Source: Naegleria gruberi
Lineage: Eukaryota
NCBI GenBank assembly: GCA_000004985.1
Contig: GG738854.1
DNA length: 64,000 nt
Strand: one strand, 5' to 3'
The translations under genes and the position numbers were made by a program. Shown piece by piece: positions 21-64,000 of the stretch. The notes beneath the pieces were generated by a model. It had not been told where the DNA came from and did no database searches. It saw nothing but the letters and a program-made list of their open reading frames with translations. Each line of letters opens with the position of its first letter. Within the stretch, counting starts at the first letter, position 1.

Positions 21-3000
21 TTGACCAATAGTACTTTCTGTACTTTTAAAGAGTCACCATGCACTTCCATTCAACAAGCCATCGATCAGGTACTGGAAAT
101 GTACTATGATAAGAAAATAATTGAACAGCCAAGTGCTCGTTTCATTCTAATGCCCAATCTCTCTGCAGGCCATCATCCATCGAAAAGACTCATCTATGGA
201 AAGGATCAGTGTGATAACTCTTTCAATAGATGGTTTTACTACTTATTACTTGAATCACATTCGAATGAAGAAATAATTGAATTTCAATGTGAGGGAGAAA
301 GTCTTGTCAACCCTCAAATGTTTTTTGGATTGTACTTGATGAGACTCAAGTTGAGGAATACCTTATTGCGTATTGATGAACGCATTGTTGTCTTGTACAT
401 GTATGGAGTACATGCCACAAATTCTAGAATTGGATTTACTAGAAAGGGAGATGATGTCATTATGAAATATTCACTCCTTTACAGTTATTTTGGAGATGGG
501 GATATTCAATTGGAGGCAAGTGATATTAATATTAATGGATCTATTGTTGAGCGAGTTACAATGTACTCGACCAGTAAGACCAGTATGAACATTACCCACT
601 CAAGGATCACACAATTCAAGTTTACCTCATCATCTGGTGGGGAATTTTCTAATTTTGATATTTTAATTTCCTTTTCGAAACTTAATAATACTGAATGGTA
701 TATTAGTAACTTTGGAAATGTGCAGTTGGATCAAATTGATATTTTCAATGATTTTCAAATCTCAATATTTTACACTAGCTCTATTTCTATTAGTCAACTA
801 TACACGAGAGGGAACAATGTACGATTTTATGCAATCTTTGTGGGGATTAGTGGTGGTATCCAAATTGAAAAATCATACTTTAATTCACTCACAAATTTTG
901 GAAATTCGAAAAACATATTTGACATTACTGCTACACCTATTTTAAATATCGAAAACTCTGTATTTTCCAACAGTAATCCATTATTTGGCGTGGCTGTTTG
1001 CGGTGAATTGAGGGGATACAATTTACAATTTATTGGAAACAAGGGTCCTTGCATATATTCTGATCTTGATAAAGGATTGGGTGTGAGCAGTGTTTCTATT
1101 TCACAATCAAAATTCATCAACAATTCATGTAGTGATTGTTCTGGAGGAGCTCTATTCTTGAGAGGTGTTGGATTTTTGGGTTTAGATTCCTCTTTTGTGG
1201 GAAATACTGCTACCAATGGAGGAGCATGTTACATTTCGGCCAGCTCAATAGGATTGAGCCAAGCCCAATTCATGGACAATAGAGCAACATTGAAAGGAGG
1301 AGCTTTTTATGTTGAATTTGTGGATAGTGGTTCCATGAATGGGGCATTTAACTTTGAATGTATCAATAACGTAGCTCAATACTCTGGAGGTTGTTACTAT
1401 TCTACTAACAGGACCTTAACATTTGAATTAATTGATCCAATTTTGGAAAGAAACCGTGCAAACTCCTATGGTGAAACATTTGGATACCCATTTTTTGATT
1501 TGAACTATCTCATTACCGTAACATATGGAAACGGAACAATATATACAGGTGTTTCTAACTCTTTTCCAGAACTTTCATTATATGCAGGTCAAATTATTTC
1601 AACCATTGAAATTACATTGTGGAACAATCGAACAGATCGAGTATCCTATTTGGAGTTGCCAATGGAGATTGAAGTGAACACGTCTCTTGTATTGCTCAAT
1701 TATGAACAAAAGAAAAACCCCTTCAATTCGACAATAACAATTGAGAATATCTATTTCACTCAAATGGCTGTGCTTCCTTCTCTCCAAAATTTCTTCACTT
1801 TACAGATGAAGATTGAGAATTTCAATCTCACAGCAATGGTCACTGTGCTGGATTGCCCTCACGGCTTATCTCTAGTCCAAAGTGTTGCACAAATTGGTAC
1901 TCTTACCTGTATTTTGAATCCAACAATACCTTATCAAATCATTATACCAGTCGTTTCAGTTGTTACACTGATTATTGTTGGAATTATTGCATTTTGTACT
2001 TTTTTCATTATTAGAATGACTCTTGTCATCGTAAGAAAACTTAAATTACTCAATAGAAAACTGGAAGCTGAAAAGAAAATGGAATCCAAACTATTACAAA
2101 AGCGAGTTGCCCTCATGGATGATGACAATGATGAGATGAATGAAAAATCATCACTTTTAATCAACTCAAATGGTGAAAGCAGCAATAACTACCATTCCCT
2201 GATGGATCATTCTTCCTCATGGATCATATCTATTGATGACATTGAGATTTTGAAAAAGATTGCTGAAGGAGCAAGTGGTTGCATTTATCTTTGTGATTGG
2301 AAGGGCACTAAGGTAGCTCTTAAAACACTTAAAAATCAAATGGAAGTCGATAATGATATCCTTTTTGAACGGGAAGCAGCATTGCTCTCAACACTTAGAC
2401 ATCCCAATATTGTTCAATTTTTTGGTATCATATTTTGTTCTAGGAAATACATAGCTGTAGAATATTTGGAAAAGGGAAGTTTGGACAAGTTGATTTATGA
2501 TTCAAAAACTGGACAGGCCAAGTTGAATTTTACAAAAAAAATTGAGATTCTTTATGGGGTTGCAAAAGGAATGGCCTATCTACACACCATGAAACCAAAA
2601 CCAATCATACACAGAGACTTGAAACCTGGAAATATTTTAATAGACATCAACTTGACACCAAAGATTTGTGATTTTGGATTGAGTAGAGTTTGGAACAATT
2701 CATTTTCCAACCAATCAGCCCCAACCATGAATGTTGGAACTTTTTTCTACCTTGCCAATGTATGTTATTTCTATTTTATCACATTCTGATTATTAACATT
2801 TTCGTTTAGGAAATGATATCTGGAGATCAATATAACCACAAGGTAGATGTTTACAGTTTTGGAATAATAATGTGGGAATTGTTTTTTGAGGAGAGCCCTT
2901 ATATTAATCAACATTCTCCCAAGCTCTTTAAATATGGAGAGGCGAGAGATGATGATATTTCACACTTGGGTTTCAATGCATTAGGAAAGGTATTGAGCGG

Positions 3001-6405: not shown

Positions 6406-7554
6406 TTAAGCCAGGCCAATATCTAATGCCATCATGGCCACAAATCCAATAAAAAAGAATAAAATTGAAATCTTTGCCAAGATTTGACTTTTTGAAGTTT
6501 TTGACATGGTGAGTGGAACTAACTCTTCAATCACTACTACAAGCATGACTCCAGAGGCACAAGAAAGGGCATACGGTAAAATTGTAGATGAGATAAATAC
6601 CAATAAACAACCAAATAGACCTCCTAATGGTTCAGTCAATCCAGAGGCTGCTCCTAAAGCAAATGCTTTCCATATTCTTCTGGAGAGAGATCCATTAGTT
6701 TCAGATCCAAATATTGGAAAGGTTACAGAGATACCTTCTGTAATATTCTGGATAGCAATTGAAAATGAAAGAGCAATTGCACTAAACAGTGTAGCTCCAG
6801 AACTTGCAGAATTGGCTGCCGCAGCAAAGGCAACTCCCACGATAATTCCTTCTGGAATATTATGTAGAGTCATGGCTGTGAAAATAACCCAGCTCTTGTG
6901 TCTATTTTCTATTTTATGATGTTCCAAATCAATTTCATCTTGTTGATTAACATTATCAGAACTTTCAATTTGATTCATTTCCACGTTCTCTTCCACCGAA
7001 TCATTTACTTGAATTCCTCTACTTTTTTTCAATTTCTTCTCAATAAATTGTTGAATTTTGTGAACTAATCCATCAAAAATCATAATAGCAACAACTCCAA
7101 CTAGAAAACTCAATCCAACAACTAATAGCATTTCAAATTTTGTATCATCTTCTCCAAAATGATTAATGGCAGGTAATAATAAACTAAAGAATGAAGCACC
7201 TAACATGACACCAGCTCCAAATGAAATTGACAATGGAATCAAGACATCATTTGTGAATGAAACATTTTGATATTCATTACTAGTTTTCCAAAATTTACCA
7301 AAAACCAATCTTCCAAGAAGGTTAGAAAATTTAGAATTTACAGAATTTCTACTTTCGAATTTGGAACAATACGAACAAAAGATCAAACTAGCTCCGAGGG
7401 CAGTGGTGGCCGAATTGATGAGTGTGAAAATAAGAGTTTGAAACACTGGATGAATACCCAATAGAAAATCCGTAACATGTCCATTTTGAGTTGTGTTAGA
7501 ATATGATGGGAGGGAATCATTAGCAAGTAAATAGAGAGGGAACAAGTCGGACAT
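6406..7554 (-). CDS. ZIP family (ZupT/ZIP11-like) zinc/iron permease, single exon.
   Basis: The 382-aa ORF starts with ATG at 7554 in an A-rich context. It has multiple TM helices, the ZIP signature HNIPEGIIVGVAFAA and a His-rich cytoplasmic loop (DLEHHKIENRHK). Confidence 0.85.
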   Translation of the reverse strand: MSDLFPLYLLANDSLPSYSNTTQNGHVTDFLLGIHPVFQTLIFTLINSATTALGASLIFCSYCSKFESRNSVNSKFSNLLGRLVFGKFWKTSNEYQNVSFTNDVLIPLSISFGAGVMLGASFFSLLLPAINHFGEDDTKFEMLLVVGLSFLVGVVAIMIFDGLVHKIQQFIEKKLKKSRGIQVNDSVEENVEMNQIESSDNVNQQDEIDLEHHKIENRHKSWVIFTAMTLHNIPEGIIVGVAFAAAANSASSGATLFSAIALSFSIAIQNITEGISVTFPIFGSETNGSLSRRIWKAFALGAASGLTEPLGGLFGCLLVFISSTILPYALSCASGVMLVVVIEELVPLTMSKTSKSQILAKISILFFFIGFVAMMALDIGLA

Positions 7555-7846
7555 TTTTCAATGCAATGTACAACTGAACACACACTGTGTTGACAAAGAG
7601 AGAGATGGTGAGTAAAAGGTGGCAGCGTTTGATTTACTTACATTTTTTTCTATTTTGGTTTGCTCCATAATTGGCCCTCATTACATGTGACAGTAAAATG
7701 CAACAACTTTCTACAATGAAATGTTGGTAAGTTTAAATGAAATATTTATATTGTAGATATATCTGGAACAAACAATTCCAATAAAAACCATATATACTAT
7801 AAGAATAATAAGAACATTGAGGAGACGAGTTGCTCCTCCACATTTT

Positions 7847-9202
7847 TCAATCCAAATGATTATTATATTTATCAACTTGTGAACTCATATCATATAATAA
7901 TTGAGCTTGTTTATCCAAATCATCAGAAAATGAATTGGCAATTCCACCAACTTGTTGAATTTGACCAAGTAAAATATCTATTTTGATATCTTGAATAGCT
8001 TTAGCTTGTTCTATTTGTTCCAAACCTTCACTAATGTCAACTGAGGGAATTTCATTCTTTGCTTTTTGAAAACTTTCAACAGAATCAAATTTGACATTCT
8101 TTAGTTCAATATCATCATGGAGTTCTTCACCCATCATTAAGGTGTGTTTTGCTTGCACTAATTTACTGGAATCCATGAAATGTTGAATATCATTCTCTCT
8201 TTGCTTTCTCATTTGAAGCAGCATTTGAATTTCTTTCCATAATAAAGTTTTTTGAAAAGCTTGTTTATGAATTGTTATTAATTAATTCATTTCATCTTCC
8301 ATCTTTGAGATTGACTTTCTAATATCATTATTTAAACGAGCATTGCTAATTTGTCGTTCCTTTGTTTCTAATAAAGATTCGACTTTATCAATGGCAAGTT
8401 TAACATTAACTATTCAAGGTGTAAATGAAACTATAAATGTTATTATTTACCTTTTTGTTGTTCAAACTTGTCCAACTTTTTTAGTTTCTGTTGAAATTCT
8501 TTTTGTGTGTCTAATTGAGCACTTTCGACAACTTGTCCACAATCTATTCTAGGGAAGAAGGATAAATTACAGCACGCAGGGGGAGAGGGGGTCTTGGCCA
8601 AATTATTAAAATAAAAATTAAAAAATTAAAAAATAATAAATAAAATAGAATGATTTCATTTGCAAAAACCGCTACAAGATGACCGTTAAATATTCAACAA
8701 AAAAAAAACAACAATTACTCATCATGATTTCATCACCACCCTGCTAAATAACAACCTTCATCACGCTACCTTGATACCACCGGAGGAGAAGTTCTTTTGC
8801 TTCCTTCCACATCATAGCCAACATTCAACATCTGTCATTTACTTGAAGTTGTTGGTACATTGAAGTGAGGGTTCAGAACGAACACCAATCACACTTGGCC
8901 ATTGTTCAGAACCCAGAAAGTGCTTGTTGCTCGAAGAACAAGTGGTAATTGATACTTTGAACGCCCTGTTTTTCTCTTGGTCTAATAAAGACTTGTATTG
9001 TTAATAAACTTCTATCTATAACAAATCATGAAAAAAAATCATACAACACCCTCAGTTGGTAGGAGGGGGTTCCAGACGGCCAAAAAGTGTAATTTATCCT
9101 TCTTCCCCTAATCTGATAAAGTCGACGTAGTAGATCAGCCAAACCTGGTGAAGTTTGCATTAAATCTATTGTTTCTATAATGTTAGAATCTATGTCTGCC
9201 AT
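7847..9202 (-). CDS. Qc-SNARE (syntaxin-8/Tlg1-like) protein interrupted by a 546-bp TIR element. With the element removed the coding segments are 9202..9098, 8548..8451 and 8409..7847, with intron 8410..8450. This copy also has an in-frame TAA at 8282-8284.
   Basis: The C-terminal SNARE heptad motif is IEQAKAIQDIKIDILLGQIQQVGGIANSFSDDLDKQAQLLYDMSSQV. The upstream coiled-coil (Habc-like) reading NVKLAIDKVESLLETKERQISNARLNNDIRKS continues across a minus-strand gtaaat..gaatag intron. The ATG at 9202 (MADIDSNIIETIDL..LRRLYQIR) joins exactly in frame to IDCGQVVESAQLDTQKEFQQKL once 8552-9100 is deleted. No C-terminal TM segment was found. The paralogous copy at 58302-58789 has GAA instead of TAA at the equivalent position. 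Confidence 0.5.
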
Positions 9203-9706
9203 GTTATTTCTTTTTTTTAATTGTTTTGGTTCACTTGAGTTTGCTTTCGAATACAAATACTGATCTGGCCGAGTAAAAAAAAAATTGCTCCAAAGCAAAA
9301 ACCTTAAAAATAGATGGTTGTCATCAACTCGAATCTTAACAACAAATTCTTATTTGCCAGCCAACTTTCTTACCTACTAAGAGTATTAAAACCAATGTTT
9401 TTGAGTTTGGGTATAAAATATTGGAAGAACCTATGGACAACTGCCAATTCTATTTCATGTTATTGTGTTAGAGGAGAGTTTTACAAATATGGTTAGATTG
9501 AAATATCCTCAAGTAACATAATTTGTGACTGTAACCTTGGATAATAAGATTCTTTTGATAGTGGTAACCAGATCTAAAAATCTCAGAGGAAAAACAACTG
9601 AAATAAAAAATCCAACAACATGACATGGCCAACAACACAACAACAAACATGGAAACAACAAGGCTACATTGCATGTTGTATCATTCTTGTGTTATTGTGT
9701 TCAACA
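8060..9706. repeat. Copy A of a 1647-bp near-identical (about 99.7%) duplicated block. Copy B is at 58301-59947.
   Basis: The two copies sit at a constant offset of 50241 with no indels. Substitutions are seen at 8185 (g/t), 8220 (a/g), 8255 (a/t) and 8284 (a/c), plus the edge bases 8060 and 9706 next to the gaps. Confidence 0.9.
8552..9097. mobile_element. MITE-like non-autonomous DNA element, 546 bp, inserted in the SNARE coding exon. It has perfect 20-bp terminal inverted repeats (GGGAAGAAGGATAAATTACA) and a 3-bp CTA target-site duplication at 8549-8551 and 9098-9100.
   Basis: The arms at 8552-8571 and 9078-9097 are exact reverse complements. A direct CTA lies immediately outside each arm. 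The interior has a roughly 40%-GC non-coding core at about 8700-8958 that ends in a T-run, flanked by A/T-rich spacers. Excising the element plus one CTA restores a continuous ORF across the junction. Confidence 0.55.
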
Positions 9707-12700
9707 TGGCATGTAAATTCTTCAATTCAAGGACCTGTCAATTACTTTGTCAAGACAATTGAAGGCAATACATTTAATTTAGATACAGTGGAAGCAAAGT
9801 ATGCATACATGTTATCTCCATCAGGATTAAGTCTTGGACTAGATGATGATTTATTTGTTTCAGATATTGATAGACATTTAGTTTTTAGAATTTATGATAA
9901 TTTATCAACTGCTGAAGTTTATGCAGGTTTTGGAACTAGTGGATTTAATGGAGATGGTTTGTCAGCAATTGATACATTGTTTAATACACCTACAGCTATA
10001 TCAGTCAATCCACTAAATGGTGATTTGTATATTGCTGATACACTCAATAATAAGATTAGGATAGTTTCGAAAAACTCTAAAATAGTTTCATCAATTTCGC
10101 AGAGCACATTTAACAAACCGAGAGGAATTCATGTTTCTCCAAATGGATTTGTTTACATTGCTGATACTGAAAATAATTTAATTAAGAAATATGAAATTTC
10201 AACAAGACAAATTTCCATACTTGGTGGAGGTGGATATCTGAGTGGAGAATATAATGGAGTGGATGCAAAATTATTGAAATTACAATCACCAATGAATTTA
10301 TTTGTGGTTTCGAATGGAAAGAATGATATAGTTTATTTCACAGATGAAGAAAGAGTCAAGTCAATTGACGAAAATGGAATTTATAGAATGGTGGATGGTG
10401 GAATGCCTCAATCAAATTTGTAAGTTTGCTTCCAGCATGTGTTTACATTTATTCGAATTATTTCGTATAAAAATTAGATTTGGAATTTATGTTTCGGATC
10501 AAGGTGAAATATATACGTCATCACAAAAGAATCATTTCATTCAAATGAAATTAACAAAATCATCACAAACAAGTATTTTTATAGGAAGTTCTTCATCTGA
10601 AAGTGGATATAGTGGGGATAATCAGCAATTTAATTCACCCAACATCAAATTTTATGAACCATCTTCATTGGTTGTCACTCAAAATTCTATTCTAGTTGCA
10701 GATAAATCGAATAATTGTATTCGAAAGATTAATTTACAAGATATGATGGTTTCAACACTTGCAGGTGGACTTGTAAATCATGCAAATGGTGAAAATATTT
10801 CTCCGCTTAGTATGCATTCAATTGGAAATGCTCAATTTCCATTCAAGTATAAGAATGATTTGTATTTTGTGGAAAAAAACAATATTTTACGAAAGGTTTC
10901 GAATGGAAAGATGACAACTGTATTGGGATGTGAAAAATCACTAACTTATCCAGCAAACATTCCCCAACGTACCTTCGTTCTAATAATTTCATTATCTTAT
11001 GCTGGAAATGGAAATGTTATGTTTTTTGCAGGTCTAGAAAATTCACTTTACAATTTCAATCTGGATTCTCAAAACTTGACGCTTATCTCAAAACTTGATT
11101 ATTATACAACTTCATTTGCCTTAATTGGTGATTCAGTTCATAATGCAACAATTTATTATAGAACCGATTTGGGAAAAGTTTGTGTTTTTAAGAATTTAGA
11201 GGCAAATCCTTCATATTGTTTGTCCATTCCAGTAACAGGAGCTGTAGATCACATTATTGTGATTCCTGATTTTAGTTATAACGGAACAAATTCCATATTT
11301 TACTATTCAGATACTTATAATAGTATTAATGAATATATTGATTACAAGAATGGTTCAATGTCAACTCGCATAACACAATTGCCAACTGTTACATCATTTA
11401 GTGGATTTTCACACTATGATAGATATTTCTATTTTTGGAATATGGGACAAATTTATGAGATGCAAATGGACACTTACTCCATAAGAAAGTTTGCAGGAAT
11501 AGATGCCTTTAATGTTTCTAATACTTTAGTTTATGCCTTGGGTTACAATGGTGAAAATATACCTTTAAATAGTTCAGCTCTGTAAGTTTTTCATTCATGA
11601 ATAATTTCAAACATGGAAAGTTTTACACCAAGTACTACCAGAATAGGATCTGAAATATATGTCACCAGCCTTTATGGCATTAGTGAAATATCCAATGGAA
11701 GAATATTTACAATTGTTGGATTAACTCCAACCTCAAAAACGATAAGTCCACTCATCTTAATGAGAGATCCAATGAAAAAGATAATCTACTATATTGATCT
11801 TAGAACTTTAAAGCAATATGATGAGAATACAGGTATTTCAAAATCCTTGTCCACATCAATTTTCTCATCACCAGCCATTCCTTTCAATGATTCACCCTTT
11901 TTAATAATGAATACATATCCATTAAAACCGTTTGGACTATTCTCAACATTTGATAGGAAGATCTATTTTAAGGACAATTGTAGAATACTTCGAATTGATC
12001 CAGAAACATTGAATTTTGAAACTATTATTGGAAATTCTTGTTCAACTCTAGTTGCTGGAGTTAAGGTATGTTTTTGAGATTTACAATTTCTAAAATTGTT
12101 AGGGATTGGATTCAGGATGCCCTACGTTTCAAGAAATGAGTGGAATGACATTTGATCAGACCAATGGTGATATACTAATATCCTTAGAAAACTATAAGAT
12201 TTACAGATATAATTTACAAACACAAATGTTATCACTTGAATTTACATTTGCTACAAGTACTTCTTATTCTCCTGATGGCATAATAACTAATCAAACTTCT
12301 GTTGGGAAAATTACAAATATCCGACATCAAAATGGATATCTATATTTCAGTACAAGTGTTGCTATTAGAAGAATAGAAAAGTTATCTGATAATACATACT
12401 ATTTGAGAACTCTTGTTGGAAATTCAGAAAAAGGATATTCAGGAACCAATTTACCAGCACTTCAATCTTCTCTTGATACTCCTTCATCATTCTATGTGAA
12501 AAATAATGGTGATATTATAATTTTGGATGGTTCTGAAGCTTATTATGTCAGAATGTACCAGCAAAGAACTGGATTATTGATAGATATTGCAGGATCAAGA
12601 TCTATCTCTTCCAGATACAATGGAGATGGTTTTGTACCCTATCCAACCTTTTCATCTTTTTCAAAACAAGTTGATTTTGATGAAAGTAGTGGGGAAATTT

Positions 12701-14062
12701 TCCTTATTGATCTTAAATCCTATATACGTAAGATTACTCCAACTTGTAGTGGAAATTACACATTCAACATTATTAATACTACTTGTGATCTGTTAATTAG
12801 TTGTAATGGATCGATAGCAACAAGTGGATATGTTTGCAATGGTAATGGGGTCTGTTCTGATTTTGAAATCTGCCAATGTAATGATGGATTTGAAGGAAGA
12901 TATTGTGAAATTCAGAAAAGTCACCCATCAAGTGATTCTACAATTTTGATAGTCTCAATTGTAATTCCTATTATTGGATCAATATTATTGTTCACCGTTA
13001 TATTTGTGATTATTGTAATTTTAGTTTGTTTTTGCAGAAACAAAAAGAAGGAAAACTTTGAAATTGGTCAAATGGACACAAATAATATTGAGCTTTCAGA
13101 TAATACATTTCTTTCTACTAGTTCAAGAATAGTTTCATCCTCAGCCGGTTCCTCGGTAGAATCAGAGAATGATAGCCCATTTTCCAGATACTCAAATATT
13201 ACAAGAATAGGGCAAGGTGCTTTTGGAAGTGTTTTTAAAGTAACTGATACAAAGGATAGAAACAGACTGAAAGCAATCAAGCTTGTTAAATTTGAATCAT
13301 TGACTGATCTTAATACAATCATGAAAGAAGCTTCTCAATTGAGTTGTGTAAATCATCCAAACATTATCAAAATGAATGATTATTTCATCACCAATGACAA
13401 GTCGTTAATTATTGATATGGATTACTATGAAATGGGTGATTTGGCTCAGTTGAAACCAGAATATTGTACTGAGAAGCTTATCCAACAAATATTGAAGCAA
13501 TCACTAAGTGCTTTGAAATATGTACACGAGGAAATGAATATTATTCATAGGTATGTAATATTTCTCTCTTGCTTATTGAATTTAAATTTTGAAATAGAGA
13601 TATCAAACCAACCAATATTTTCATAAAGAAGTTGACTAGTGATAATATTGAGATTGTCTTGGCAGATTTTGGATTAGCCAAAAAGTATCAAGAGTCCAAA
13701 GGTCAATCATATGCTGGAACACCACTGTGTAAGTTTCAATAATTTTCATTTTCAACGAAATATGAAAAGTTATGAGTCCTGAAGTGGCTCTTGGTAGTTC
13801 ATACTCATTCAATACTGATATTTTCTCATTAGGAGTTTCCATATATCAAATTATGACGAATGATCGTGTAACTTCAATAAGCAACTTGTTGATGGGAAAT
13901 CAATCAGAAAATGCAACTAATATTTTAACGAATCAAATGAAAGAATCACCTAGTCAGGAATATTCTGATGAGTTGATTGAGATTGTTTTGAAAATGGTGG
14001 AAAAGGATTTGAATATTAGACCAAACGCCTCACAGTTACTTTCTCTCTCATATTTCAAATAA
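9620..14062 (+). CDS. NHL-repeat receptor-like Ser/Thr protein kinase: signal peptide, NHL repeats, EGF-like module, TM helix and kinase. The 6 exons are 9620..10419, 10478..11581, 11642..12065, 12103..13550, 13598..13728 and 13770..14062.
   Basis: The start is ATG at 9620 with a hydrophobic signal (ACCIILVLLCSTW). NHL-type repeats include LYIADTLNNKIRIV and VYIADTENNLIKKY. The EGF-like module is CNGNGVCSDFEICQCNDGFEGRYC and the TM helix is ILIVSIVIPIIGSILLFTVIFVIIVILVCF. The kinase motifs are GQGAFGSVFKV..AIKLV, IIHR|DIKPTNIF (split by an intron), DFGLAKK and MSPEVALG. The introns are 10420..10477, 11582..11641, 12066..12102, 13551..13597 and 13729..13769, each GTAAGT/GTATGT..AG with the frame preserved. 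Confidence 0.8.
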
Positions 14063-30585: not shown

Positions 30586-32688
30586 TTACTTTACATTTAG
30601 AAAATAGTCAATTCGTTTTTGTTTCTTATTTGGTTTTTCGTAGGGGTTGATTCTATACCACTTTTCGTTTACAACAATTTCGTTCCTCTCCATAATATGT
30701 GAAATAAATTTTTGTCCTGCTCCTGATACTTCACTCGGCATTTGTCCTTCATTATTGCAAATACTCAATAAATTTGGATAGCATTCCAATATTTCTTCTA
30801 CAACCTCATAATCCAAATCAAATTTATCACTTGCAAACTGATGAAGAAGTGTTGAACCATGTTCATCTTGATAGGCAAGCTCTTCTTCTTCCATGCAATC
30901 TATTCCAAAATCATCCCCTGTGATATGAGAAAAAAGTTGATAAGTATTCAAAAAGGACAAATAGGGTCTAAAGAAATAACTTCTCAAGTTATTGTTATCC
31001 TTAAAAATTATCCAAGCCTTATCCAATATTATGATACAATAATCTTCAGCATTGTTTTTGTTGAAGGAGAGAGAGTTTCTAAGTACATCAATAGCTCTAT
31101 ATTTTTCCATTTTAGTAATTGGGTCGAAATTAAAATCCAAACATGGTTTAAAATCAAGAGTATATTTTTGAAAAGTACTTCGAAGATAATTAGTGTAAGG
31201 TTGTAAGAATGTTGGAGCTTCAAAAGCAGTATAAAAATAATGCAATTCAGGTATATAACATTCAAATAAGGAATGTCCATGTTTGAAAATAGAGTCCAAC
31301 ATTTTTTTCATATTTGAAAGATCTAAACGGTAAAACGAATGTTCACTGGTCATTTGTGAGAACATTAGTGGATGATATTCAGTCAATTCAAACAAATTCA
31401 CTTCAATAACGGGTTTGCCCTCTTCCTCATAGCTAATTCTCTTACAAAAATCTCTTTTGTGAAGAGTAATTTGGTAGCTCTCTGAATTGTTGAAATACTC
31501 AACAAATCTAAGAGTAATTCTTGCATCAACAAATAAACAGTAGATATCCAATTTTTGTTCGAATAATCCTCTTAAGTCTACTAAATCTTGTATCATTACT
31601 GTTGGTCTATAAATTTTCAATTCTTTTCTATTGTCACAAAAATCAATTCTATTCATCAATGGAATTCGTACTTCTTTCAATCCAAAAGCTGAGAAATGGT
31701 TGAGAGAATATACCTCGCTTATTTCATTCAAAATTGGAGCACATCGAATGTATCTAAGTTTGTTATAATTAGTAAGGCAAAGATCTTTTCTATTAATTTT
31801 AGGATGCATAATGTACAATGAATCAGTTAAGGGATTTTTCATAAATTCTCTTTTTGATAATTCTAAACTAGCTCTAACATATTTTCTTTCTCCAAAATCA
31901 TCATCATAAATATATAGAGTATCCAATTGTAAAATTCGTTTTTTCATCATTAAAGCATATTCTCTATTAATCAATCTCATCTTGACACAAGTCATAAATT
32001 CATTATCCACTCTTTTCATACAGGCTGGATTTAATTTCTTTTCCCATAGTCTAGTATTACAATCATCATCACAATGTTTTTCATAAAATTCATCTTGGCT
32101 AATGCCCATTTGCTCACAAGTTATTTTCACATTTCTTTCCATCATTTTGATTCTTTCTGGTTTTGAATAAGTTGGAATGAATGTGATTATTTCATATTTG
32201 ATTTCAATTGGTAAATCTACCAACATTTCACTCTTTGTAATCTCAAGTTGATCATATTTCTGATTTGAAAGTGTTTTTATATCCATAGTTATCCAATGGG
32301 TGGTTACATTATTCAACATTCTATTAATCCTCTCTAATCCTAAACAATCACTTCGAATATTAGTTGACTGCCAAGCTCGAATCTGATTCTTACTGTTAAT
32401 ATCAACAAAATCAATTTGACTAATCTCTAAAACACTTCCTTTTGCACATTGATCAAATAAAAATATCTGAATAGGACTATAATATCTAATTTCATCATTA
32501 GAATATCTATCATAATTTTTTAAATTATAGGAAGGATGATTTGATAATGGACGACTAACAAGACATTCACTAGAATAAAGATGTCTCTCATCTAATACTA
32601 ATACTTCAAATTTATGTGCACTCGGGAAGGAATTTGCTGCATAGTATAACTCTGCCACCAACGATTCTTTGCTTTGGTGTCTTGTCAT
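30586..32688 (-). CDS. Hypothetical 700-aa protein, single exon, no recognisable domain.
   Basis: This is a long uninterrupted ORF beginning with ATG at 32688. Its composition is non-repetitive. The AT-rich genome context makes a chance 2.1-kb ORF very unlikely. Confidence 0.6.
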   Translation of the reverse strand: MTRHQSKESLVAELYYAANSFPSAHKFEVLVLDERHLYSSECLVSRPLSNHPSYNLKNYDRYSNDEIRYYSPIQIFLFDQCAKGSVLEISQIDFVDINSKNQIRAWQSTNIRSDCLGLERINRMLNNVTTHWITMDIKTLSNQKYDQLEITKSEMLVDLPIEIKYEIITFIPTYSKPERIKMMERNVKITCEQMGISQDEFYEKHCDDDCNTRLWEKKLNPACMKRVDNEFMTCVKMRLINREYALMMKKRILQLDTLYIYDDDFGERKYVRASLELSKREFMKNPLTDSLYIMHPKINRKDLCLTNYNKLRYIRCAPILNEISEVYSLNHFSAFGLKEVRIPLMNRIDFCDNRKELKIYRPTVMIQDLVDLRGLFEQKLDIYCLFVDARITLRFVEYFNNSESYQITLHKRDFCKRISYEEEGKPVIEVNLFELTEYHPLMFSQMTSEHSFYRLDLSNMKKMLDSIFKHGHSLFECYIPELHYFYTAFEAPTFLQPYTNYLRSTFQKYTLDFKPCLDFNFDPITKMEKYRAIDVLRNSLSFNKNNAEDYCIIILDKAWIIFKDNNNLRSYFFRPYLSFLNTYQLFSHITGDDFGIDCMEEEELAYQDEHGSTLLHQFASDKFDLDYEVVEEILECYPNLLSICNNEGQMPSEVSGAGQKFISHIMERNEIVVNEKWYRINPYEKPNKKQKRIDYFLNVK

Positions 32689-38009: not shown

Positions 38010-41000
38010 TTATGCAACATAATGTAATATTGAATTATTTTGTTCATCTCTTTTCAAAAAATCTCTTTCAAGTAAAGATTCAATTCTCTTCTTAATTTGT
38101 TTAACATCAGGAGTAAATATTGGAATTAATTGTGAACTAACTTCATTAAATAATGATTGAATATTCATTGTCTTTCTTGTTTTCATAATTCTAACAACAC
38201 ATGCATCTAAAATATGAACTCTATCTGTACTAACACTTGTTTGTGTACCTTGTGTATCTTTTTGTGTTATTCTTGGTAATGGAATTTTAAGTTTAAATGA
38301 TCGAGATGTAAAATTTTCATTCAATGAAAGTGTCATTTCCTTCTGATTAAATATTAAAATTGGAAATTTTGTTGATGATAATGAAATTATTGATTGTTTC
38401 AAATCAATATCTGAATTATTATTCAAATCAACTGTAGTATTACTTCCAAATGAACTTGATCTTTGATTCATTCCATTATTGGTACTATTATTATTATTGC
38501 TACTATTACTACTATTATTCTGATTAATTGTACCATCAAAATTTAAACCAGTTAAATCTTCAATTTGTTTAACAGATAATTGTAATTGATCATTAAAAAG
38601 TAATAAAATTGAAGCTTGTAAAGTAGAAAGTTCAAATAAATGATTACCATTAATATAATGAGCATGAATTTGAGCCATACTCTTTGAATAAACCCATTTT
38701 AAAACTCTTTTACCATTTCTAGAATCATAAAATTGTTTAAATAAATGTTGTGATTCTAAAAATTCCTTTGGAAGTAACATGTGTTCTTTTGCTTTTAAAG
38801 GCCACATTCCCATAGTTAAAACTGTAACATTAACATCATATGAAAGTTGTAATTGATTTGTTGTAATATAATTTTGAAATTCTAATTTCATATCATTGGC
38901 CATTGTTTTATCTGTTAACATTTTCTCTAATTTATAAGTATCAGCAACACCTCTATAATGATATTTTAATTTAGAAATCATCATTCTTTCTTCTAATTCT
39001 TGATAATCAGTTACTAATAATCTTATAGCAAATAATTTACGATGTTCTTCAATAAACATATCTCTATCTGAAAAGAATTGAATAAAATCAACAATACAAT
39101 CTAATTTCTTTTCATCACTCTTCTTTCTTAATACATCATCTGTATAATAGGCAAATAATTGTACAATTCTAATTTCAAATTGACCAAGTGTTATATTCTT
39201 ATTAACAAATTGTTTAAATCCTTCTGACATGGCCTTATGAAATATTACATTTCTTGAAAATGATCCATTTGTTATATTTTTCATCTTTTGATGAAGTTCT
39301 AATAAATCTTGAACATAGGAATCAATTAAAAATCTAACTACTTTACTATATACTTCATTAGATATTATATGAATATTATTATTAGATGTATTATTAGATG
39401 TATTATTATTATTTGATGTATTAGATGTACTACCATTATTATTACCATTATTATTATTATTATTTAAATTATTATCATTAGATTTAATCATTTCAGATGA
39501 AGCATTTTCATACTTGACAAATAATTCATTTCCAACAAAAATTAAATATTGTTTAAATAAATCAGCAATTGGATCTAAACCACCTTCTAATCTATTCATT
39601 AAACGATATAATCTTTTCAAATCATCAAATTTTTCATCTCTAATTAAAATTTTAACACCACTTCCACTCATTTCTAATAAACGTTTTTGCATATTTTTCA
39701 ATAATTCCAAATCACATAATTTCATTAACTTGTTTTGTGAAAAACTAGTTGGAAATATTGCTTGAATTCTAGTTTGTTCTTGTTGAATACATTCTTCAGC
39801 AAATAATAAATATTCTGTTAAATTATACTTTTCAATCCATTCATTAGCAATTTTATGATAAAATTCACTTGTTTCCTTCTCTGCATATTTTTCAAATTCA
39901 TCAACATAGACCTCACTTGTTGAATGTTGTTGTTGTTGTTGTTGTGTAGATGATGATGATAATTGATTTGATGTTGAATCAATAATCATATTATCATTAT
40001 TACTGCTTGTACCACCACTGCTTGTACCAATATTATTACTTTGTGTAGTATTAGTATTAGTAGTATTATTATTATTATTATTAGCATGATGAAGACCACC
40101 TGTATTTAAAGTAATATTTGGATCATCCATTTCAGAAAATAATTGTAAAGTTTGTTTTAATAATTGTCTTTGTGAAATGTAATAAGAATTATCGGAATTA
40201 TAAAATTTACGATCTTGTGTAATTTTATCAAGTAAAATTTGTCTTAATTGAACTTTACAATGATCAAATATACTTGTTTTAAATAAATAATAAGCTTCAT
40301 ATTTTAAAGTTCTTTTAGTATTTGAAGCAACATAAAATTGATCTAAATATTTAAATATATAGGAACAAAATTTTACAAAAATGTCTCTAAAATTAATCCA
40401 AATAAAAACAATTTCATTTAATAAATCTTCTCCATATTTATCTTTTAATTTTGGTAATATTGTTGTTTGTAAATATTTTTTAATATAAATTGAATATAAA
40501 TTATATAATTGTTCTTCATAATAAACTGAATCAGGTAAAATACATAAATTATATATAGTTGTAAATAATAATACATGTTCATCATTCTCCCATGGTTTTA
40601 ATTCATTCAAATTTTGACTTTCTCTTTTACCATTTACAAATGTTTCTAATTTTTTTAAACTTTTATAAATTTCATACCAAGTTTCACGTAATTTTTGACT
40701 TCTTGTTTGATCATTTGTATTATTAGTTGTAGTATTATTAGTATTATTACCATTATTAATAGTGGATGGAGTTGTTGAACTTGTTCCACCACTACTACTA
40801 CTAGTAGCAGTGATAGTATTATTATTATTATTAGAATTATTATTAGAATTATGATTAATTTGATGAGAATTGGTTGGAGTATGATGAAGATGACTATTTG
40901 GAGTTGAAGAATTTGGTTGAATGGGTGGTTTCTTTTGAGGAGTAGAAGGATTTGAATTAATTGATTGATTTCCTAGATTAGTTGGTGGTTGTTGTAAAAA

Positions 41001-58250: not shown

Positions 58251-58300
58251 NNNNNNNNNNNNNNNNNNNNNNNNNNNNNNNNNNNNNNNNNNNNNNNNNN
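58251..58300. other. Assembly gap (50 N).
   Basis: A run of n characters. Confidence 1.
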
Positions 58301-59947
58301 GGCTTTTTGAAAACTTTCAACAGAATCAAATTTGACATTCTTTAGTTCAATATCATCATGGAGTTCTTCACCCATCATTAAGGTGTGTTTTGCTTGCACT
58401 AATTTACTGGAATCCATGAAATGTTTAATATCATTCTCTCTTTGCTTTCTCATTTGAAGCGGCATTTGAATTTCTTTCCATAATAAAGTTTTTTGTAAAG
58501 CTTGTTTATGAATTGTTATTAATTCATTCATTTCATCTTCCATCTTTGAGATTGACTTTCTAATATCATTATTTAAACGAGCATTGCTAATTTGTCGTTC
58601 CTTTGTTTCTAATAAAGATTCGACTTTATCAATGGCAAGTTTAACATTAACTATTCAAGGTGTAAATGAAACTATAAATGTTATTATTTACCTTTTTGTT
58701 GTTCAAACTTGTCCAACTTTTTTAGTTTCTGTTGAAATTCTTTTTGTGTGTCTAATTGAGCACTTTCGACAACTTGTCCACAATCTATTCTAGGGAAGAA
58801 GGATAAATTACAGCACGCAGGGGGAGAGGGGGTCTTGGCCAAATTATTAAAATAAAAATTAAAAAATTAAAAAATAATAAATAAAATAGAATGATTTCAT
58901 TTGCAAAAACCGCTACAAGATGACCGTTAAATATTCAACAAAAAAAAAACAACAATTACTCATCATGATTTCATCACCACCCTGCTAAATAACAACCTTC
59001 ATCACGCTACCTTGATACCACCGGAGGAGAAGTTCTTTTGCTTCCTTCCACATCATAGCCAACATTCAACATCTGTCATTTACTTGAAGTTGTTGGTACA
59101 TTGAAGTGAGGGTTCAGAACGAACACCAATCACACTTGGCCATTGTTCAGAACCCAGAAAGTGCTTGTTGCTCGAAGAACAAGTGGTAATTGATACTTTG
59201 AACGCCCTGTTTTTCTCTTGGTCTAATAAAGACTTGTATTGTTAATAAACTTCTATCTATAACAAATCATGAAAAAAAATCATACAACACCCTCAGTTGG
59301 TAGGAGGGGGTTCCAGACGGCCAAAAAGTGTAATTTATCCTTCTTCCCCTAATCTGATAAAGTCGACGTAGTAGATCAGCCAAACCTGGTGAAGTTTGCA
59401 TTAAATCTATTGTTTCTATAATGTTAGAATCTATGTCTGCCATGTTATTTCTTTTTTTTAATTGTTTTGGTTCACTTGAGTTTGCTTTCGAATACAAATA
59501 CTGATCTGGCCGAGTAAAAAAAAAATTGCTCCAAAGCAAAAACCTTAAAAATAGATGGTTGTCATCAACTCGAATCTTAACAACAAATTCTTATTTGCCA
59601 GCCAACTTTCTTACCTACTAAGAGTATTAAAACCAATGTTTTTGAGTTTGGGTATAAAATATTGGAAGAACCTATGGACAACTGCCAATTCTATTTCATG
59701 TTATTGTGTTAGAGGAGAGTTTTACAAATATGGTTAGATTGAAATATCCTCAAGTAACATAATTTGTGACTGTAACCTTGGATAATAAGATTCTTTTGAT
59801 AGTGGTAACCAGATCTAAAAATCTCAGAGGAAAAACAACTGAAATAAAAAATCCAACAACATGACATGGCCAACAACACAACAACAAACATGGAAACAAC
59901 AAGGCTACATTGCATGTTGTATCATTCTTGTGTTATTGTGTTCAACC
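58301..59947. repeat. Copy B of the 1647-bp duplicated block (equals 8060-9706), bounded by gaps on both sides.
   Basis: Base-for-base collinear with copy A at an offset of 50241, apart from 4 internal substitutions and 2 edge bases. It includes the 3' part of the SNARE gene, the TIR element (arms 58793-58812 and 59319-59338) and the first 87 nt of the NHL-kinase CDS (ATG 59861). Confidence 0.9.
58302..58789 (-). CDS. Copy B of the Qc-SNARE gene, partial. Exons are 58692..58789 and 58302..58650 (3' end lost in the gap). It lacks the premature stop of copy A.
   Basis: The ORF 58241..58543 reads MEDEMNELITIHKQALQKTLLWKEIQMPLQMRKQREND.. straight through the position where copy A has TAA. Intron 58651..58691 is as in copy A. 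Confidence 0.45.
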
Positions 59948-62900
59948 NNNNNNNNNNNNNNNNNNNNNNNNNNNNNNNNNNNNNNNNNNNNNNNNNNNNN
60001 NNNNNNNNNNNNNNNNNNNNNNNNNNNNNNNNNNNNNNNNNNNNNNNNNNNNNNNNNNNNNNNNNNNNNNNNNNNNNNNNNNNNNNNNNNNNNNNNNNNN
60101 NNNNNNNNNNNNNNNNNNNNNNNNNNNNNNNNNNNNNNNNNNNNNNNNNNNNNNNNNNNNNNNNNNNNNNNNNNNNNNNNNNNNNNNNNNNNNNNNNNNN
60201 NNNNNNNNNNNNNNNNNNNNNNNNNNNNNNNNNNNNNNNNNNNNNNNNNNNNNNNNNNNNNNNNNNNNNNNNNNNNNNNNNNNNNNNNNNNNNNNNNNNN
60301 NNNNNNNNNNNNNNNNNNNNNNNNNNNNNNNNNNNNNNNNNNNNNNNNNNNNNNNNNNNNNNNNNNNNNNNNNNNNNNNNNNNNNNNNNNNNNNNNNNNN
60401 NNNNNNNNNNNNNNNNNNNNNNNNNNNNNNNNNNNNNNNNNNNNNNNNNNNNNNNNNNNNNNNNNNNNNNNNNNNNNNNNNNNNNNNNNNNNNNNNNNNN
60501 NNNNNNNNNNNNNNNNNNNNNNNNNNNNNNNNNNNNNNNNNNNNNNNNNNNNNNNNNNNNNNNNNNNNNNNNNNNNNNNNNNNNNNNNNNNNNNNNNNNN
60601 NNNNNNNNNNNNNNNNNNNNNNNNNNNNNNNNNNNNNNNNNNNNNNNNNNNNNNNNNNNNNNNNNNNNNNNNNNNNNNNNNNNNNNNNNNNNNNNNNNNN
60701 NNNNNNNNNNNNNNNNNNNNNNNNNNNNNNNNNNNNNNNNNNNNNNNNNNNNNNNNNNNNNNNNNNNNNNNNNNNNNNNNNNNNNNNNNNNNNNNNNNNN
60801 NNNNNNNNNNNNNNNNNNNNNNNNNNNNNNNNNNNNNNNNNNNNNNNNNNNNNNNNNNNNNNNNNNNNNNNNNNNNNNNNNNNNNNNNNNNNNNNNNNNN
60901 NNNNNNNNNNNNNNNNNNNNNNNNNNNNNNNNNNNNNNNNNNNNNNNNNNNNNNNNNNNNNNNNNNNNNNNNNNNNNNNNNNNNNNNNNNNNNNNNNNNN
61001 NNNNNNNNNNNNNNNNNNNNNNNNNNNNNNNNNNNNNNNNNNNNNNNNNNNNNNNNNNNNNNNNNNNNNNNNNNNNNNNNNNNNNNNNNNNNNNNNNNNN
61101 NNNNNNNNNNNNNNNNNNNNNNNNNNNNNNNNNNNNNNNNNNNNNNNNNNNNNNNNNNNNNNNNNNNNNNNNNNNNNNNNNNNNNNNNNNNNNNNNNNNN
61201 NNNNNNNNNNNNNNNNNNNNNNNNNNNNNNNNNNNNNNNNNNNNNNNNNNNNNNNNNNNNNNNNNNNNNNNNNNNNNNNNNNNNNNNNNNNNNNNNNNNN
61301 NNNNNNNNNNNNNNNNNNNNNNNNNNNNNNNNNNNNNNNNNNNNNNNNNNNNNNNNNNNNNNNNNNNNNNNNNNNNNNNNNNNNNNNNNNNNNNNNNNNN
61401 NNNNNNNNNNNNNNNNNNNNNNNNNNNNNNNNNNNNNNNNNNNNNNNNNNNNNNNNNNNNNNNNNNNNNNNNNNNNNNNNNNNNNNNNNNNNNNNNNNNN
61501 NNNNNNNNNNNNNNNNNNNNNNNNNNNNNNNNNNNNNNNNNNNNNNNNNNNNNNNNNNNNNNNNNNNNNNNNNNNNNNNNNNNNNNNNNNNNNNNNNNNN
61601 NNNNNNNNNNNNNNNNNNNNNNNNNNNNNNNNNNNNNNNNNNNNNNNNNNNNNNNNNNNNNNNNNNNNNNNNNNNNNNNNNNNNNNNNNNNNNNNNNNNN
61701 NNNNNNNNNNNNNNNNNNNNNNNNNNNNNNNNNNNNNNNNNNNNNNNNNNNNNNNNNNNNNNNNNNNNNNNNNNNNNNNNNNNNNNNNNNNNNNNNNNNN
61801 NNNNNNNNNNNNNNNNNNNNNNNNNNNNNNNNNNNNNNNNNNNNNNNNNNNNNNNNNNNNNNNNNNNNNNNNNNNNNNNNNNNNNNNNNNNNNNNNNNNN
61901 NNNNNNNNNNNNNNNNNNNNNNNNNNNNNNNNNNNNNNNNNNNNNNNNNNNNNNNNNNNNNNNNNNNNNNNNNNNNNNNNNNNNNNNNNNNNNNNNNNNN
62001 NNNNNNNNNNNNNNNNNNNNNNNNNNNNNNNNNNNNNNNNNNNNNNNNNNNNNNNNNNNNNNNNNNNNNNNNNNNNNNNNNNNNNNNNNNNNNNNNNNNN
62101 NNNNNNNNNNNNNNNNNNNNNNNNNNNNNNNNNNNNNNNNNNNNNNNNNNNNNNNNNNNNNNNNNNNNNNNNNNNNNNNNNNNNNNNNNNNNNNNNNNNN
62201 NNNNNNNNNNNNNNNNNNNNNNNNNNNNNNNNNNNNNNNNNNNNNNNNNNNNNNNNNNNNNNNNNNNNNNNNNNNNNNNNNNNNNNNNNNNNNNNNNNNN
62301 NNNNNNNNNNNNNNNNNNNNNNNNNNNNNNNNNNNNNNNNNNNNNNNNNNNNNNNNNNNNNNNNNNNNNNNNNNNNNNNNNNNNNNNNNNNNNNNNNNNN
62401 NNNNNNNNNNNNNNNNNNNNNNNNNNNNNNNNNNNNNNNNNNNNNNNNNNNNNNNNNNNNNNNNNNNNNNNNNNNNNNNNNNNNNNNNNNNNNNNNNNNN
62501 NNNNNNNNNNNNNNNNNNNNNNNNNNNNNNNNNNNNNNNNNNNNNNNNNNNNNNNNNNNNNNNNNNNNNNNNNNNNNNNNNNNNNNNNNNNNNNNNNNNN
62601 NNNNNNNNNNNNNNNNNNNNNNNNNNNNNNNNNNNNNNNNNNNNNNNNNNNNNNNNNNNNNNNNNNNNNNNNNNNNNNNNNNNNNNNNNNNNNNNNNNNN
62701 NNNNNNNNNNNNNNNNNNNNNNNNNNNNNNNNNNNNNNNNNNNNNNNNNNNNNNNNNNNNNNNNNNNNNNNNNNNNNNNNNNNNNNNNNNNNNNNNNNNN
62801 NNNNNNNNNNNNNNNNNNNNNNNNNNNNNNNNNNNNNNNNNNNNNNNNNNNNNNNNNNNNNNNNNNNNNNNNNNNNNNNNNNNNNNNNNNNNNNNNNNNN

Positions 62901-64000
62901 NNNNNNNNNNNNNNNNNNNNNNNNNNNNNNNNNNNNNNNNNNNNNNNNNNNNNNNNNNNNNNNNNNNNNNNNNNNNNNNNNNNNNNNNNNNNNNNNNNNN
63001 NNNNNNNNNNNNNNNNNNNNNNNNNNNNNNNNNNNNNNNNNNNNNNNNNNNNNNNNNNNNNNNNNNNNNNNNNNNNNNNNNNNNNNNNNNNNNNNNNNNN
63101 NNNNNNNNNNNNNNNNNNNNNNNNNNNNNNNNNNNNNNNNNNNNNNNNNNNNNNNNNNNNNNNNNNNNNNNNNNNNNNNNNNNNNNNNNNNNNNNNNNNN
63201 NNNNNNNNNNNNNNNNNNNNNNNNNNNNNNNNNNNNNNNNNNNNNNNNNNNNNNNNNNNNNNNNNNNNNNNNNNNNNNNNNNNNNNNNNNNNNNNNNNNN
63301 NNNNNNNNNNNNNNNNNNNNNNNNNNNNNNNNNNNNNNNNNNNNNNNNNNNNNNNNNNNNNNNNNNNNNNNNNNNNNNNNNNNNNNNNNNNNNNNNNNNN
63401 NNNNNNNNNNNNNNNNNNNNNNNNNNNNNNNNNNNNNNNNNNNNNNNNNNNNNNNNNNNNNNNNNNNNNNNNNNNNNNNNNNNNNNNNNNNNNNNNNNNN
63501 NNNNNNNNNNNNNNNNNNNNNNNNNNNNNNNNNNNNNNNNNNNNNNNNNNNNNNNNNNNNNNNNNNNNNNNNNNNNNNNNNNNNNNNNNNNNNNNNNNNN
63601 NNNNNNNNNNNNNNNNNNNNNNNNNNNNNNNNNNNNNNNNNNNNNNNNNNNNNNNNNNNNNNNNNNNNNNNNNNNNNNNNNNNNNNNNNNNNNNNNNNNN
63701 NNNNNNNNNNNNNNNNNNNNNNNNNNNNNNNNNNNNNNNNNNNNNNNNNNNNNNNNNNNNNNNNNNNNNNNNNNNNNNNNNNNNNNNNNNNNNNNNNNNN
63801 NNNNNNNNNNNNNNNNNNNNNNNNNNNNNNNNNNNNNNNNNNNNNNNNNNNNNNNNNNNNNNNNNNNNNNNNNNNNNNNNNNNNNNNNNNNNNNNNNNNN
63901 NNNNNNNNNNNNNNNNNNNNNNNNNNNNNNNNNNNNNNNNNNNNNNNNNNNNNNNNNNNNNNNNNNNNNNNNNNNNNNNNNNNNNNNNNNNNNNNNNNNN
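59948..64000. other. Assembly gap (N run to the window end).
   Basis: A run of n characters. Confidence 1.

What the first reader, a model, noticed from the sequence alone, without database searches (positions are those of the whole stretch)
8060..9706. A 1.65-kb near-identical block is repeated 50 kb downstream between two gaps, with a nonsense difference in the SNARE ORF
Seen in sequence: 8060-9706 and 58301-59947 are collinear with no indels and about 4 internal substitutions (8185, 8220, 8255, 8284). The block spans the SNARE 3' exon, the TIR element and the first 87 nt of the NHL-kinase gene. The 8284 a/c difference makes TAA in copy A (MEDEMN*) but GAA in copy B. Copy B is the whole of a 1647-bp contig bounded by N runs, and its two terminal bases also mismatch. 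That pattern fits a scaffolding or haplotig artefact, that is an allelic contig mis-placed. It also fits a very recent segmental duplication whose junctions are hidden in the gaps. Either way, one allele or copy of the SNARE gene carries a premature stop.
Basis: seen in the sequence. Interest (0 to 1): 0.5.

Follow-up and report, generated by a model that had tools for sequence, protein, structure and literature searches.

The report
Redundant small contig in draft assembly
A 1.65-kb stretch of the Naegleria gruberi draft genome appears twice, most likely because a small leftover contig of one locus was placed 50 kb away by the scaffolder; the "nonsense difference" lies in a SNARE gene copy that is already dead, so the finding is ordinary.

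Summary
Blocks 8060-9706 and 58301-59947 are collinear without indels and differ at six positions: 8185, 8220, 8255, 8284 and the two terminal bases. Copy B is a whole 1647-bp contig between a 50-N run and an N run of at least 4053.

The window is Naegleria gruberi (two ORFs are 100% identical to proteins annotated on one 665-kb scaffold), so both N runs are most likely real scaffold gaps.

The SNARE gene is an unannotated, fast-diverged paralogue that is broken regardless of position 8284:
- a 556-bp TIR element sits inside its first coding exon, in both copies;
- its 3' end has nine missing codons and two frameshifts.

At all four internal differences copy B keeps the residue conserved in homologues, and copy A, on the main contig, is derived. 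The four sites fall within 100 bp (P about 8e-4) next to 1421 identical bases.

Best reading (about 0.55): one locus is represented twice, either as an allelic contig or as an error-split one, and was mis-scaffolded. A real, very recent partial duplication (about 0.3) cannot be excluded without reads. Interest is low.

The parts
8060..9706 (.). Copy A of the 1647-bp block, internal to the 58,250-bp main contig
   Evidence: gap-free alignment to 58301-59947 with 6 mismatches. family D3.
58301..59947 (.). Copy B: an entire 1647-bp contig in the same orientation as A
   Evidence: bounded by N runs on both sides. Its first and last bases mismatch A.
58251..58300 (.). 50-N scaffold gap between the main contig and copy B. 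The main contig breaks off inside an extremely AT-rich hydrolase-like ORF.
   Evidence: GC 0.17-0.22 over 54-58 kb; Abhydrolase_1 match for 56317-58250.
59948..64000 (.). N run of at least 4053 bases after copy B. It is most likely a real scaffold gap, not padding.
   Evidence: The genes of the window lie on a 665,159-bp N. gruberi scaffold.
8185..8284 (-). Cluster of the four internal differences (8185, 8220, 8255, 8284). A/B residues are Q/K, L/P, F/L and stop/E. Copy B carries the conserved state each time.
   Evidence: E, P and K are the same in all 7 homologues; L/V at the fourth site; clustering P = 8e-4.
7749..9202 (-). Unannotated, decayed SNARE paralogue (pseudogene). ATG at 9202; exon 1 at 9111-9202 plus 8451-8548, split by the TIR element; intron 8410-8450; exon 2 from 8409 to 7850; then out-of-frame remnants.
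8552..9107 (.). 556-bp non-autonomous TIR element (MITE-like) with 20-nt perfect TIRs. It is flanked by CTA (8549-8551 and 9108-9110) and inserted in the coding exon. It is present in both copies (B: 58793-59348).
   Evidence: Removing the element plus one CTA restores ...LYQIRIDCG..., which is contiguous in the N. lovaniensis gene.
7749..7851 (-). 3' end of the SNARE pseudogene. Nine codons are missing and the frame shifts before IEKCGGATRLL (7851-7774). A second shift precedes WFLLELFVPDISTI (7790-7749). This part lies outside the duplicated block.
   Evidence: tblastn of N. gruberi P0001 gives three segments in frames -3, -1 and -2, with P0001 residues 297-305 unmatched.
9620..10423 (+). 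First exon of the NHL-repeat / EGF / TM / protein-kinase gene. Only its first 87 nt are in the block.
   Evidence: NHL, Pkinase, EGF; downstream junctions are clean GTAAGT...AG introns.

Best explanation
Copy B is most likely not a second genomic locus. It is a small leftover contig of the same locus as 8060-9706 in the Sanger-era draft assembly of Naegleria gruberi NEG-M. Reads carrying the B version of the 100-bp patch 8185-8284 were not merged into the main contig and formed their own 1.65-kb contig. Its mate links all point into the large main contig, so the scaffolder parked it in the next available gap, which is the AT-rich break at 58,250. The two versions are either the two alleles of a heterozygous diploid (about 0.3) or one true sequence (B) plus a poorly supported consensus patch in A (about 0.25). 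Shown: the identity, the gap-bounded contig, the organism, the direction of the differences and the dead state of the gene. Inferred: the read behaviour and the scaffolding mechanism. Under any reading the TAA at 8284 has no functional weight, because the SNARE copy is a pseudogene. It is interrupted by a TIR element in both versions and frameshifted twice at its 3' end.
For: Copy B is a whole 1647-bp contig bounded by Ns, and its first and last bases are the only other mismatches, which is typical of ragged contig ends. The window is the N. gruberi draft, which has 1977 contigs in 784 scaffolds (PMC6125883 Table 1). The main contig ends in 17-22% GC low-complexity sequence, so a gap is expected there without any duplication. 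The differences are not spread as in two independently evolving copies: 4 lie in 100 bp and 0 in the adjacent 1421 bp. All four are derived on the main contig, all are non-synonymous and 3 of 4 are transversions, while B matches the homologues. Neither end of the block coincides with any repeat, TSD or gene boundary. Naegleria is regarded as a heterozygous diploid (PMC9928731, citing the genome paper). From my memory of JGI practice, not checked here: stand-alone redundant scaffolds were filtered out, so only redundant contigs that got scaffolded survive.
Against: A contig allelic to 8-9.7 kb should have mate pairs pointing to about 0-18 kb or about 45-50 kb, not beyond 58 kb. Its placement 50 kb downstream, in the same orientation and with a minimal gap, therefore needs a scaffolder quirk that I could not verify. 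The large gap right after B is also what a collapsed true duplicate would leave. An isolated four-SNP patch in an otherwise identical 1.6 kb is odd for alleles. If the A patch is a base-call error, it is odd that the assembler kept it in the main contig.
Confidence: 0.55

Rival explanations
1. There is a real, very recent intrachromosomal partial duplication. A segment starting near 8060, inside the SNARE pseudogene, and running rightwards through the TIR element and promoter into the NHL-kinase gene was copied about 50 kb downstream in direct orientation. Only the part near the four distinguishing sites assembled separately. The rest of the copy collapsed onto 9.7 kb onwards, leaving the gap of at least 4 kb.
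For: The scaffolder placed B after 58,250 in the same orientation with a minimal 50-N gap, followed by at least 4053 N, as expected if the remainder of the copy was collapsed. B extends only 125 bp to the left of the SNP cluster but 1422 bp to the right, which is compatible with a left junction close to 8060.
Against: No junction is visible. Both ends stop one mismatching base after the identity, instead of running into unique flank. Divergence is 0 in 1421 bp but 4% in 100 bp. The truncated, presumably younger copy B carries the ancestral states while the full-context copy A carries all four changes. Non-TE duplicates at 99.8% identity are uncommon in a compact 41-Mb genome (my own judgement, not tested). 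The contig break at 58,250 is explained by 17-22% GC sequence alone.
Confidence: 0.3
2. A fragment was captured and moved by a transposon. The block, or a larger piece including it, was carried to the second site by a Pack-MULE- or Helitron-like element whose ends are hidden in the gaps.
For: The block joins parts of two genes and an intergenic region, as captured fragments do. A DNA transposon relic lies inside it.
Against: No TIRs, TSDs or Helitron termini occur at the block ends, and the only TIR pair is internal and short. No other copy of the TIR or of the element's sequence was found elsewhere in the window. Nothing specific supports this beyond the generic duplication case.
Confidence: 0.03

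Closest known systems
Haplotigs or redundant allelic contigs in draft assemblies of heterozygous diploids (the class removed by tools such as purge_haplotigs or purge_dups; named from my own knowledge)
   Same: A small contig, bounded by gaps, nearly identical and collinear to an interior part of a large contig. The few differences are concentrated in a patch that would block read merging, and the contig ends are ragged.
   Different: It sits 50 kb from its counterpart, not beside it or on its own scaffold. Apart from one 100-bp patch the two versions are identical, so the surrounding region shows no heterozygosity.
Recent segmental (intrachromosomal) duplication partly collapsed in a whole-genome shotgun assembly
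   Same: Direct orientation, tens of kb apart, more than 99.5% identity, followed by a large gap.
   Different: No junction sequence is present, divergence is non-uniform, and the truncated copy is the one with ancestral states.
Unitary or duplicated pseudogene disrupted by a MITE insertion
   Same: The SNARE paralogue has TIR plus TSD insertion in a coding exon, frameshifts, an internal deletion and accelerated divergence. It is 49-62% identical to homologues that are 65-82% identical to each other, with one 98-100% species pair.
   Different: Nothing unusual. This is the ordinary decay path of a redundant paralogue, and the intact paralogue P0001 is annotated on another N. gruberi scaffold.

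Membership tests
Redundant/allelic contig (assembly artefact) | Near-identical, collinear, gap-free match to another part of the same assembly | tested here: met
   1641 of 1647 bases identical, no indels, same strand.
Redundant/allelic contig (assembly artefact) | The copy is a complete small contig delimited by gaps, with no unique flank | tested here: met
   N runs 58251-58300 and 59948-64000. Only the terminal bases differ at the ends.
Redundant/allelic contig (assembly artefact) | Combined read depth of the two copies equals single-copy depth, and variants behave as phased heterozygous sites or as errors | not testable with these tools
   No reads are available. N. gruberi loci are not in the contig index.
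Recent segmental duplication | Each copy is joined to different unique flanking sequence (junctions) | tested here: inconclusive
   B's flanks are Ns. The end of the main contig (58,200-58,250) is unrelated to the sequence left of 8060, so any junction would lie in the 50-N gap.
Recent segmental duplication | Differences scattered along the copies in proportion to age | tested here: not met
   4 differences in 100 bp and none in 1421 bp; P = 8e-4 for the clustering.
Recent segmental duplication | Doubled read depth over the collapsed part, and spanning long reads | not testable with these tools
   Needs the JGI traces or the public NEG-M Nanopore reads (EBI S-BSST1363, cited in PMC12344493).
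Functional SNARE gene | Sequence homology to SNARE proteins | tested here: met
   E = 5e-81 to N. gruberi P0001. The relatives are named t-SNARE coiled-coil homology proteins, and P0005 and P0007 carry PF05739. Alignment.
Functional SNARE gene | Uninterrupted reading frame through the SNARE motif and C-terminal membrane anchor | tested here: not met
   TIR element in exon 1, 9 codons missing, two frameshifts. TAA in copy A. The repaired protein gives no Pfam hit at E <= 0.01.
MITE (non-autonomous DNA transposon) | Terminal inverted repeats and a target-site duplication; short, with no transposase ORF | tested here: met
   20-nt perfect TIRs, CTA on both sides (also readable as TA with one extra G), 556 bp. 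Excision restores the conserved reading frame. One search shows no ORF confined to the element.
MITE (non-autonomous DNA transposon) | Multiple dispersed copies in the genome | not testable with these tools
   Only the A/B pair occurs in the window. The three 20-mer hits in metagenome contigs are single, unrelated chance matches.

The most novel reading that the evidence does not exclude
Copy B is a genuine, extremely young partial duplicate inserted about 50 kb downstream, and the four clustered changes record a single localised mutational event (for example error-prone repair synthesis) in the parental copy next to the duplication breakpoint. That would give a dated example of duplication-associated clustered mutation in a heterolobosean.
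Probability: 0.12. Interest if true: 0.25.

Novelty: not a real feature. Interest (0 to 1): 0.08.

Why it matters
It matters little for biology. For users of the N. gruberi draft it flags three things: a probably redundant 1.65-kb contig inside a 665-kb scaffold; a 100-bp patch (8185-8284) of the main contig whose consensus should not be trusted without reads; and an unannotated SNARE pseudogene that should not be counted as a heterozygous loss-of-function allele. If the duplication were real, it would be an ordinary young segmental duplicate of non-functional sequence plus a promoter and 87 nt of a receptor-kinase gene.

Tried and rejected
- **Trailing N run as padding, with B at a scaffold end.** Rejected: ORFs of the window are exact N. 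gruberi proteins on a 665,159-bp scaffold.
- **A different heterolobosean as the source.** I first suspected this because the SNARE and ZIP ORFs had only 62% and 49% best hits. Rejected; those two genes are simply unannotated.
- **A chimeric scaffold, suggested by the GC drop after 36 kb.** Rejected: 1-58,250 is one gap-free contig, and genes at 30.6 kb and 42.4 kb belong to the same N. gruberi scaffold.
- **A circular or tandem 50,241-bp unit.** Rejected: the sequence before the gap does not match the sequence before 8060.
- **TAA as a sense codon (ciliate-type code).** Rejected: long standard ORFs occur throughout the window, and two are identical to annotated proteins.
- **The TIR element acting as an intron.** Rejected: no GT at its 5' end on the coding strand; the nearest upstream GT would break the frame and delete conserved residues; the N. 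lovaniensis gene has no intron at that site.
- **A gene-conversion patch from the intact paralogue as the source of B's conserved states.** Rejected: at 62% protein identity a 100-bp tract would bring many more than four differences.
- **Independent sequence of the locus.** None found. Exact-protein look-ups failed. A metagenome scan for the 8284 region found nothing. A scan for the TIR 20-mer gave three unrelated chance hits; one of them looks like an organelle-type contig.
- **RNA families.** Rfam gave no hit in 7500-10000.
- **Literature.** The N. gruberi genome paper and its review are not held. A search on JAZZ haplotype behaviour was unproductive.

Full report
Blocks 8060-9706 and 58301-59947 are each 1647 bp and align base for base without indels. 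They differ at six positions: 8060 T/G, 8185 G/T, 8220 A/G, 8255 A/T, 8284 A/C and 9706 A/C. The window has two N runs, 58251-58300 (50 N) and 59948-64000 (4053 N, to the window end), so copy B is a complete contig. The repeat finder recovers the pair independently, and it is the only long repeat linking these two regions. The sequences next to the two copies are unrelated.

**2. Where the window comes from.** The ORF 42412-44886(-) is 100% identical to the annotated Naegleria gruberi cullin-4 (EFC47621.1). The ORF 30586-32688(-) is exactly EFC47619.1. Both are on one record of 665,159 bp.
- The window is therefore part of the N. gruberi draft genome, which has 40.9 Mb and 1977 contigs in 784 scaffolds (PMC6125883, Table 1).
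- The trailing N run is most likely a real gap of at least 4 kb, not padding.
- My memory is that this is a roughly 8x Sanger assembly made at JGI with JAZZ. I could not read the genome paper here.
- Positions 1-58,250 form one gap-free contig. It breaks off in very AT-rich, Asn-codon-rich sequence (GC 0.17-0.22) inside a hydrolase-like ORF.

**3. What the block contains.**
- On the plus strand it holds the first 87 nt of a receptor-like gene with NHL repeats, an EGF-like domain, a membrane span and a protein kinase domain. That gene's later exon junctions are clean GTAAGT...AG introns.
- On the minus strand it holds a SNARE homologue with ATG at 9202.
- The first SNARE exon is interrupted by a 556-bp element (8552-9107) with 20-nt perfect terminal inverted repeats, flanked by CTA on both sides.
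- Removing the element plus one CTA gives ...LYQIRIDCGQVV..., a motif conserved in all homologues. In the N. lovaniensis gene this motif is contiguous in one exon.
- The N. lovaniensis gene's only intron lies at KFERQK|V. The window has a 41-nt GTAAAT...AG intron at the same place, 8410-8450.
- The element is therefore an insertion into coding sequence, not an intron. It has no GT at its 5' end on the coding strand. It is present in both copies A and B.

**4. The SNARE copy is a pseudogene whatever base is at 8284.** A tblastn search with N. gruberi P0001 splits the 3' part into three frames:
- 8410-7850, which contains the TAA;
- 7851-7774 (IEKCGGATRLL..., the conserved juxtamembrane motif and anchor);
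- 7790-7749 (WFLLELFVPDISTI).

P0001 residues 297-305 have no counterpart. That makes nine missing codons and two frameshifts, all to the left of the duplicated block. The repaired protein is 49-62% identical to homologues. Those homologues are 65-82% identical to each other (one 98-100% species pair), even across genera. The repaired protein is closest to the N. gruberi paralogue P0001, which lies on another scaffold. This is a long branch typical of a redundant duplicate under relaxed constraint. No identical protein is in the databases, so the locus is unannotated.

**5. Direction and pattern of the differences.** All four internal differences are non-synonymous. The A/B residues are stop/E, F/L, L/P and Q/K.
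- In the alignment with seven homologues, B has the conserved residue each time. E, P and K are the same in all seven, and the fourth site is L or V. All four changes are therefore derived on the main contig.
- Three of the four are transversions.
- They span 100 bp, at intervals of 35, 35 and 29 bp, and are followed by 1421 identical bases. The probability of such clustering is 8e-4.
- The two terminal mismatches are synonymous and sit exactly at the contig ends.

**6. Interpretation.** Two independently evolving loci should differ along their whole length, and these do not. Three single-step pictures remain.
- (a) Alleles of one locus. The A allele carries a local multi-base change, which kept the B-type reads out of the main contig.
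- (b) One sequence. B is correct and the main-contig consensus over 8185-8284 is poorly supported, for example resting on a low-quality read tail with about 3-4% error.
- (c) A very young true duplicate. Only the part next to the distinguishing patch assembled separately, and the rest collapsed.

Pictures (a) and (b) both mean B is redundant and misplaced. I give them about 0.3 and 0.25.
- For them: B is a gap-bounded contig with ragged ends; the contig break at 58,250 is explained by composition alone; such contigs are common in draft assemblies of heterozygous diploids. Naegleria is considered a heterozygous diploid (PMC9928731).
- Against them: mate pairs of a contig allelic to 8-9.7 kb would not point beyond 58 kb. 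The placement therefore needs the scaffolder to have pushed a contig whose estimated position fell inside a large contig into the next gap. That is plausible, but I could not verify it.

Picture (c) gets about 0.3.
- For it: it fits the placement, the shared orientation, the minimal 50-N gap and the large following gap.
- Against it: it shows no junction, and it has the truncated copy carrying the ancestral states.

**7. The premature stop.** The TAA at 8282-8284 is a real feature of the deposited sequence. It is either a fourth or fifth lesion in one allele or copy of a dead gene, or a consensus error. It is not a heterozygous loss-of-function of a working SNARE.

**8. What led nowhere.**
- Exact-protein look-ups for window ORFs and N. 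gruberi proteins in the contig index failed.
- A metagenome scan for the 8284 region found nothing.
- The TIR 20-mer hit three unrelated contigs once each, with no further similarity.
- Rfam found nothing in 7500-10000.
- I considered and rejected a circular or tandem unit, a ciliate-type genetic code, a chimeric scaffold, intron function for the element, and gene conversion from the paralogue. The reasons are in the tried-and-rejected field.

**9. Verdict.** The most likely answer is a redundant contig in a draft assembly, and the gene affected is a pseudogene. Public Nanopore reads of the same strain (cited in PMC12344493) would settle placement, copy number and the bases at 8185-8284 in an afternoon. 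Interest is low.

Noticed in passing
window 8552-9107 (and 58793-59348): A 556-bp MITE-like element with 20-nt perfect TIRs (GGGAAGAAGGATAAATTACA) and a CTA (or TA) target duplication is inserted in a coding exon. Precise excision restores the conserved LYQIRIDCG frame. No other copy occurs in the window.
   Followed up: yes
window 7749-7851: The 3' end of the SNARE paralogue has nine missing codons and two frameshifts, yet the conserved IEKxGGATRLL motif and the anchor are still readable. The decay is therefore fairly recent.
   Followed up: yes
window 6406-7554 (-): An intact 382-aa ZIP zinc-transporter ORF (Pfam Zip, E = 9e-25) has no N. gruberi protein among its database hits. The best hit is N. 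lovaniensis at 49%. It appears to be a gene missed by the annotation.
   Followed up: partly
window 36000-58250: GC falls from about 0.33 (1-36 kb) to 0.17-0.30. Coding regions here are full of AAT/Asn-rich 9-15-nt periodic repeats, in a DOCK-family ORF of 2278 aa at 47357-54193 and a hydrolase-like ORF at 56317-58250. The main contig ends in this sequence.
   Followed up: partly
window 38010-41990 and 42412-44886 (both -): Two cullin genes lie in tandem. The downstream one is annotated cullin-4. The upstream one (1326 aa) has a roughly 600-aa N-terminal extension (with a weak, sub-threshold DUF7381 match) before the cullin domain. An 86-nt stretch is 72% identical between the two genes.
   Followed up: no
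window 8410-8450 versus L001 10247-10574: The conserved intron position (KFE.QK|V) holds a 41-nt intron in the N. gruberi pseudogene but a roughly 330-nt intron in the N. lovaniensis gene.
   Followed up: no
window 8185, 8220, 8255, 8284: The four differences are almost evenly spaced (35, 35 and 29 nt). I have no explanation for this. It would fit a steady error rate of about 3% along a read tail as well as it fits coincidence.
   Followed up: partly
window 99-2789 and 9620-14000 (+): Two receptor-like kinases lie within 14 kb. One has Chlam_PMP-like repeats plus a kinase domain; the other has NHL repeats, EGF, TM and a kinase domain.
   Followed up: no
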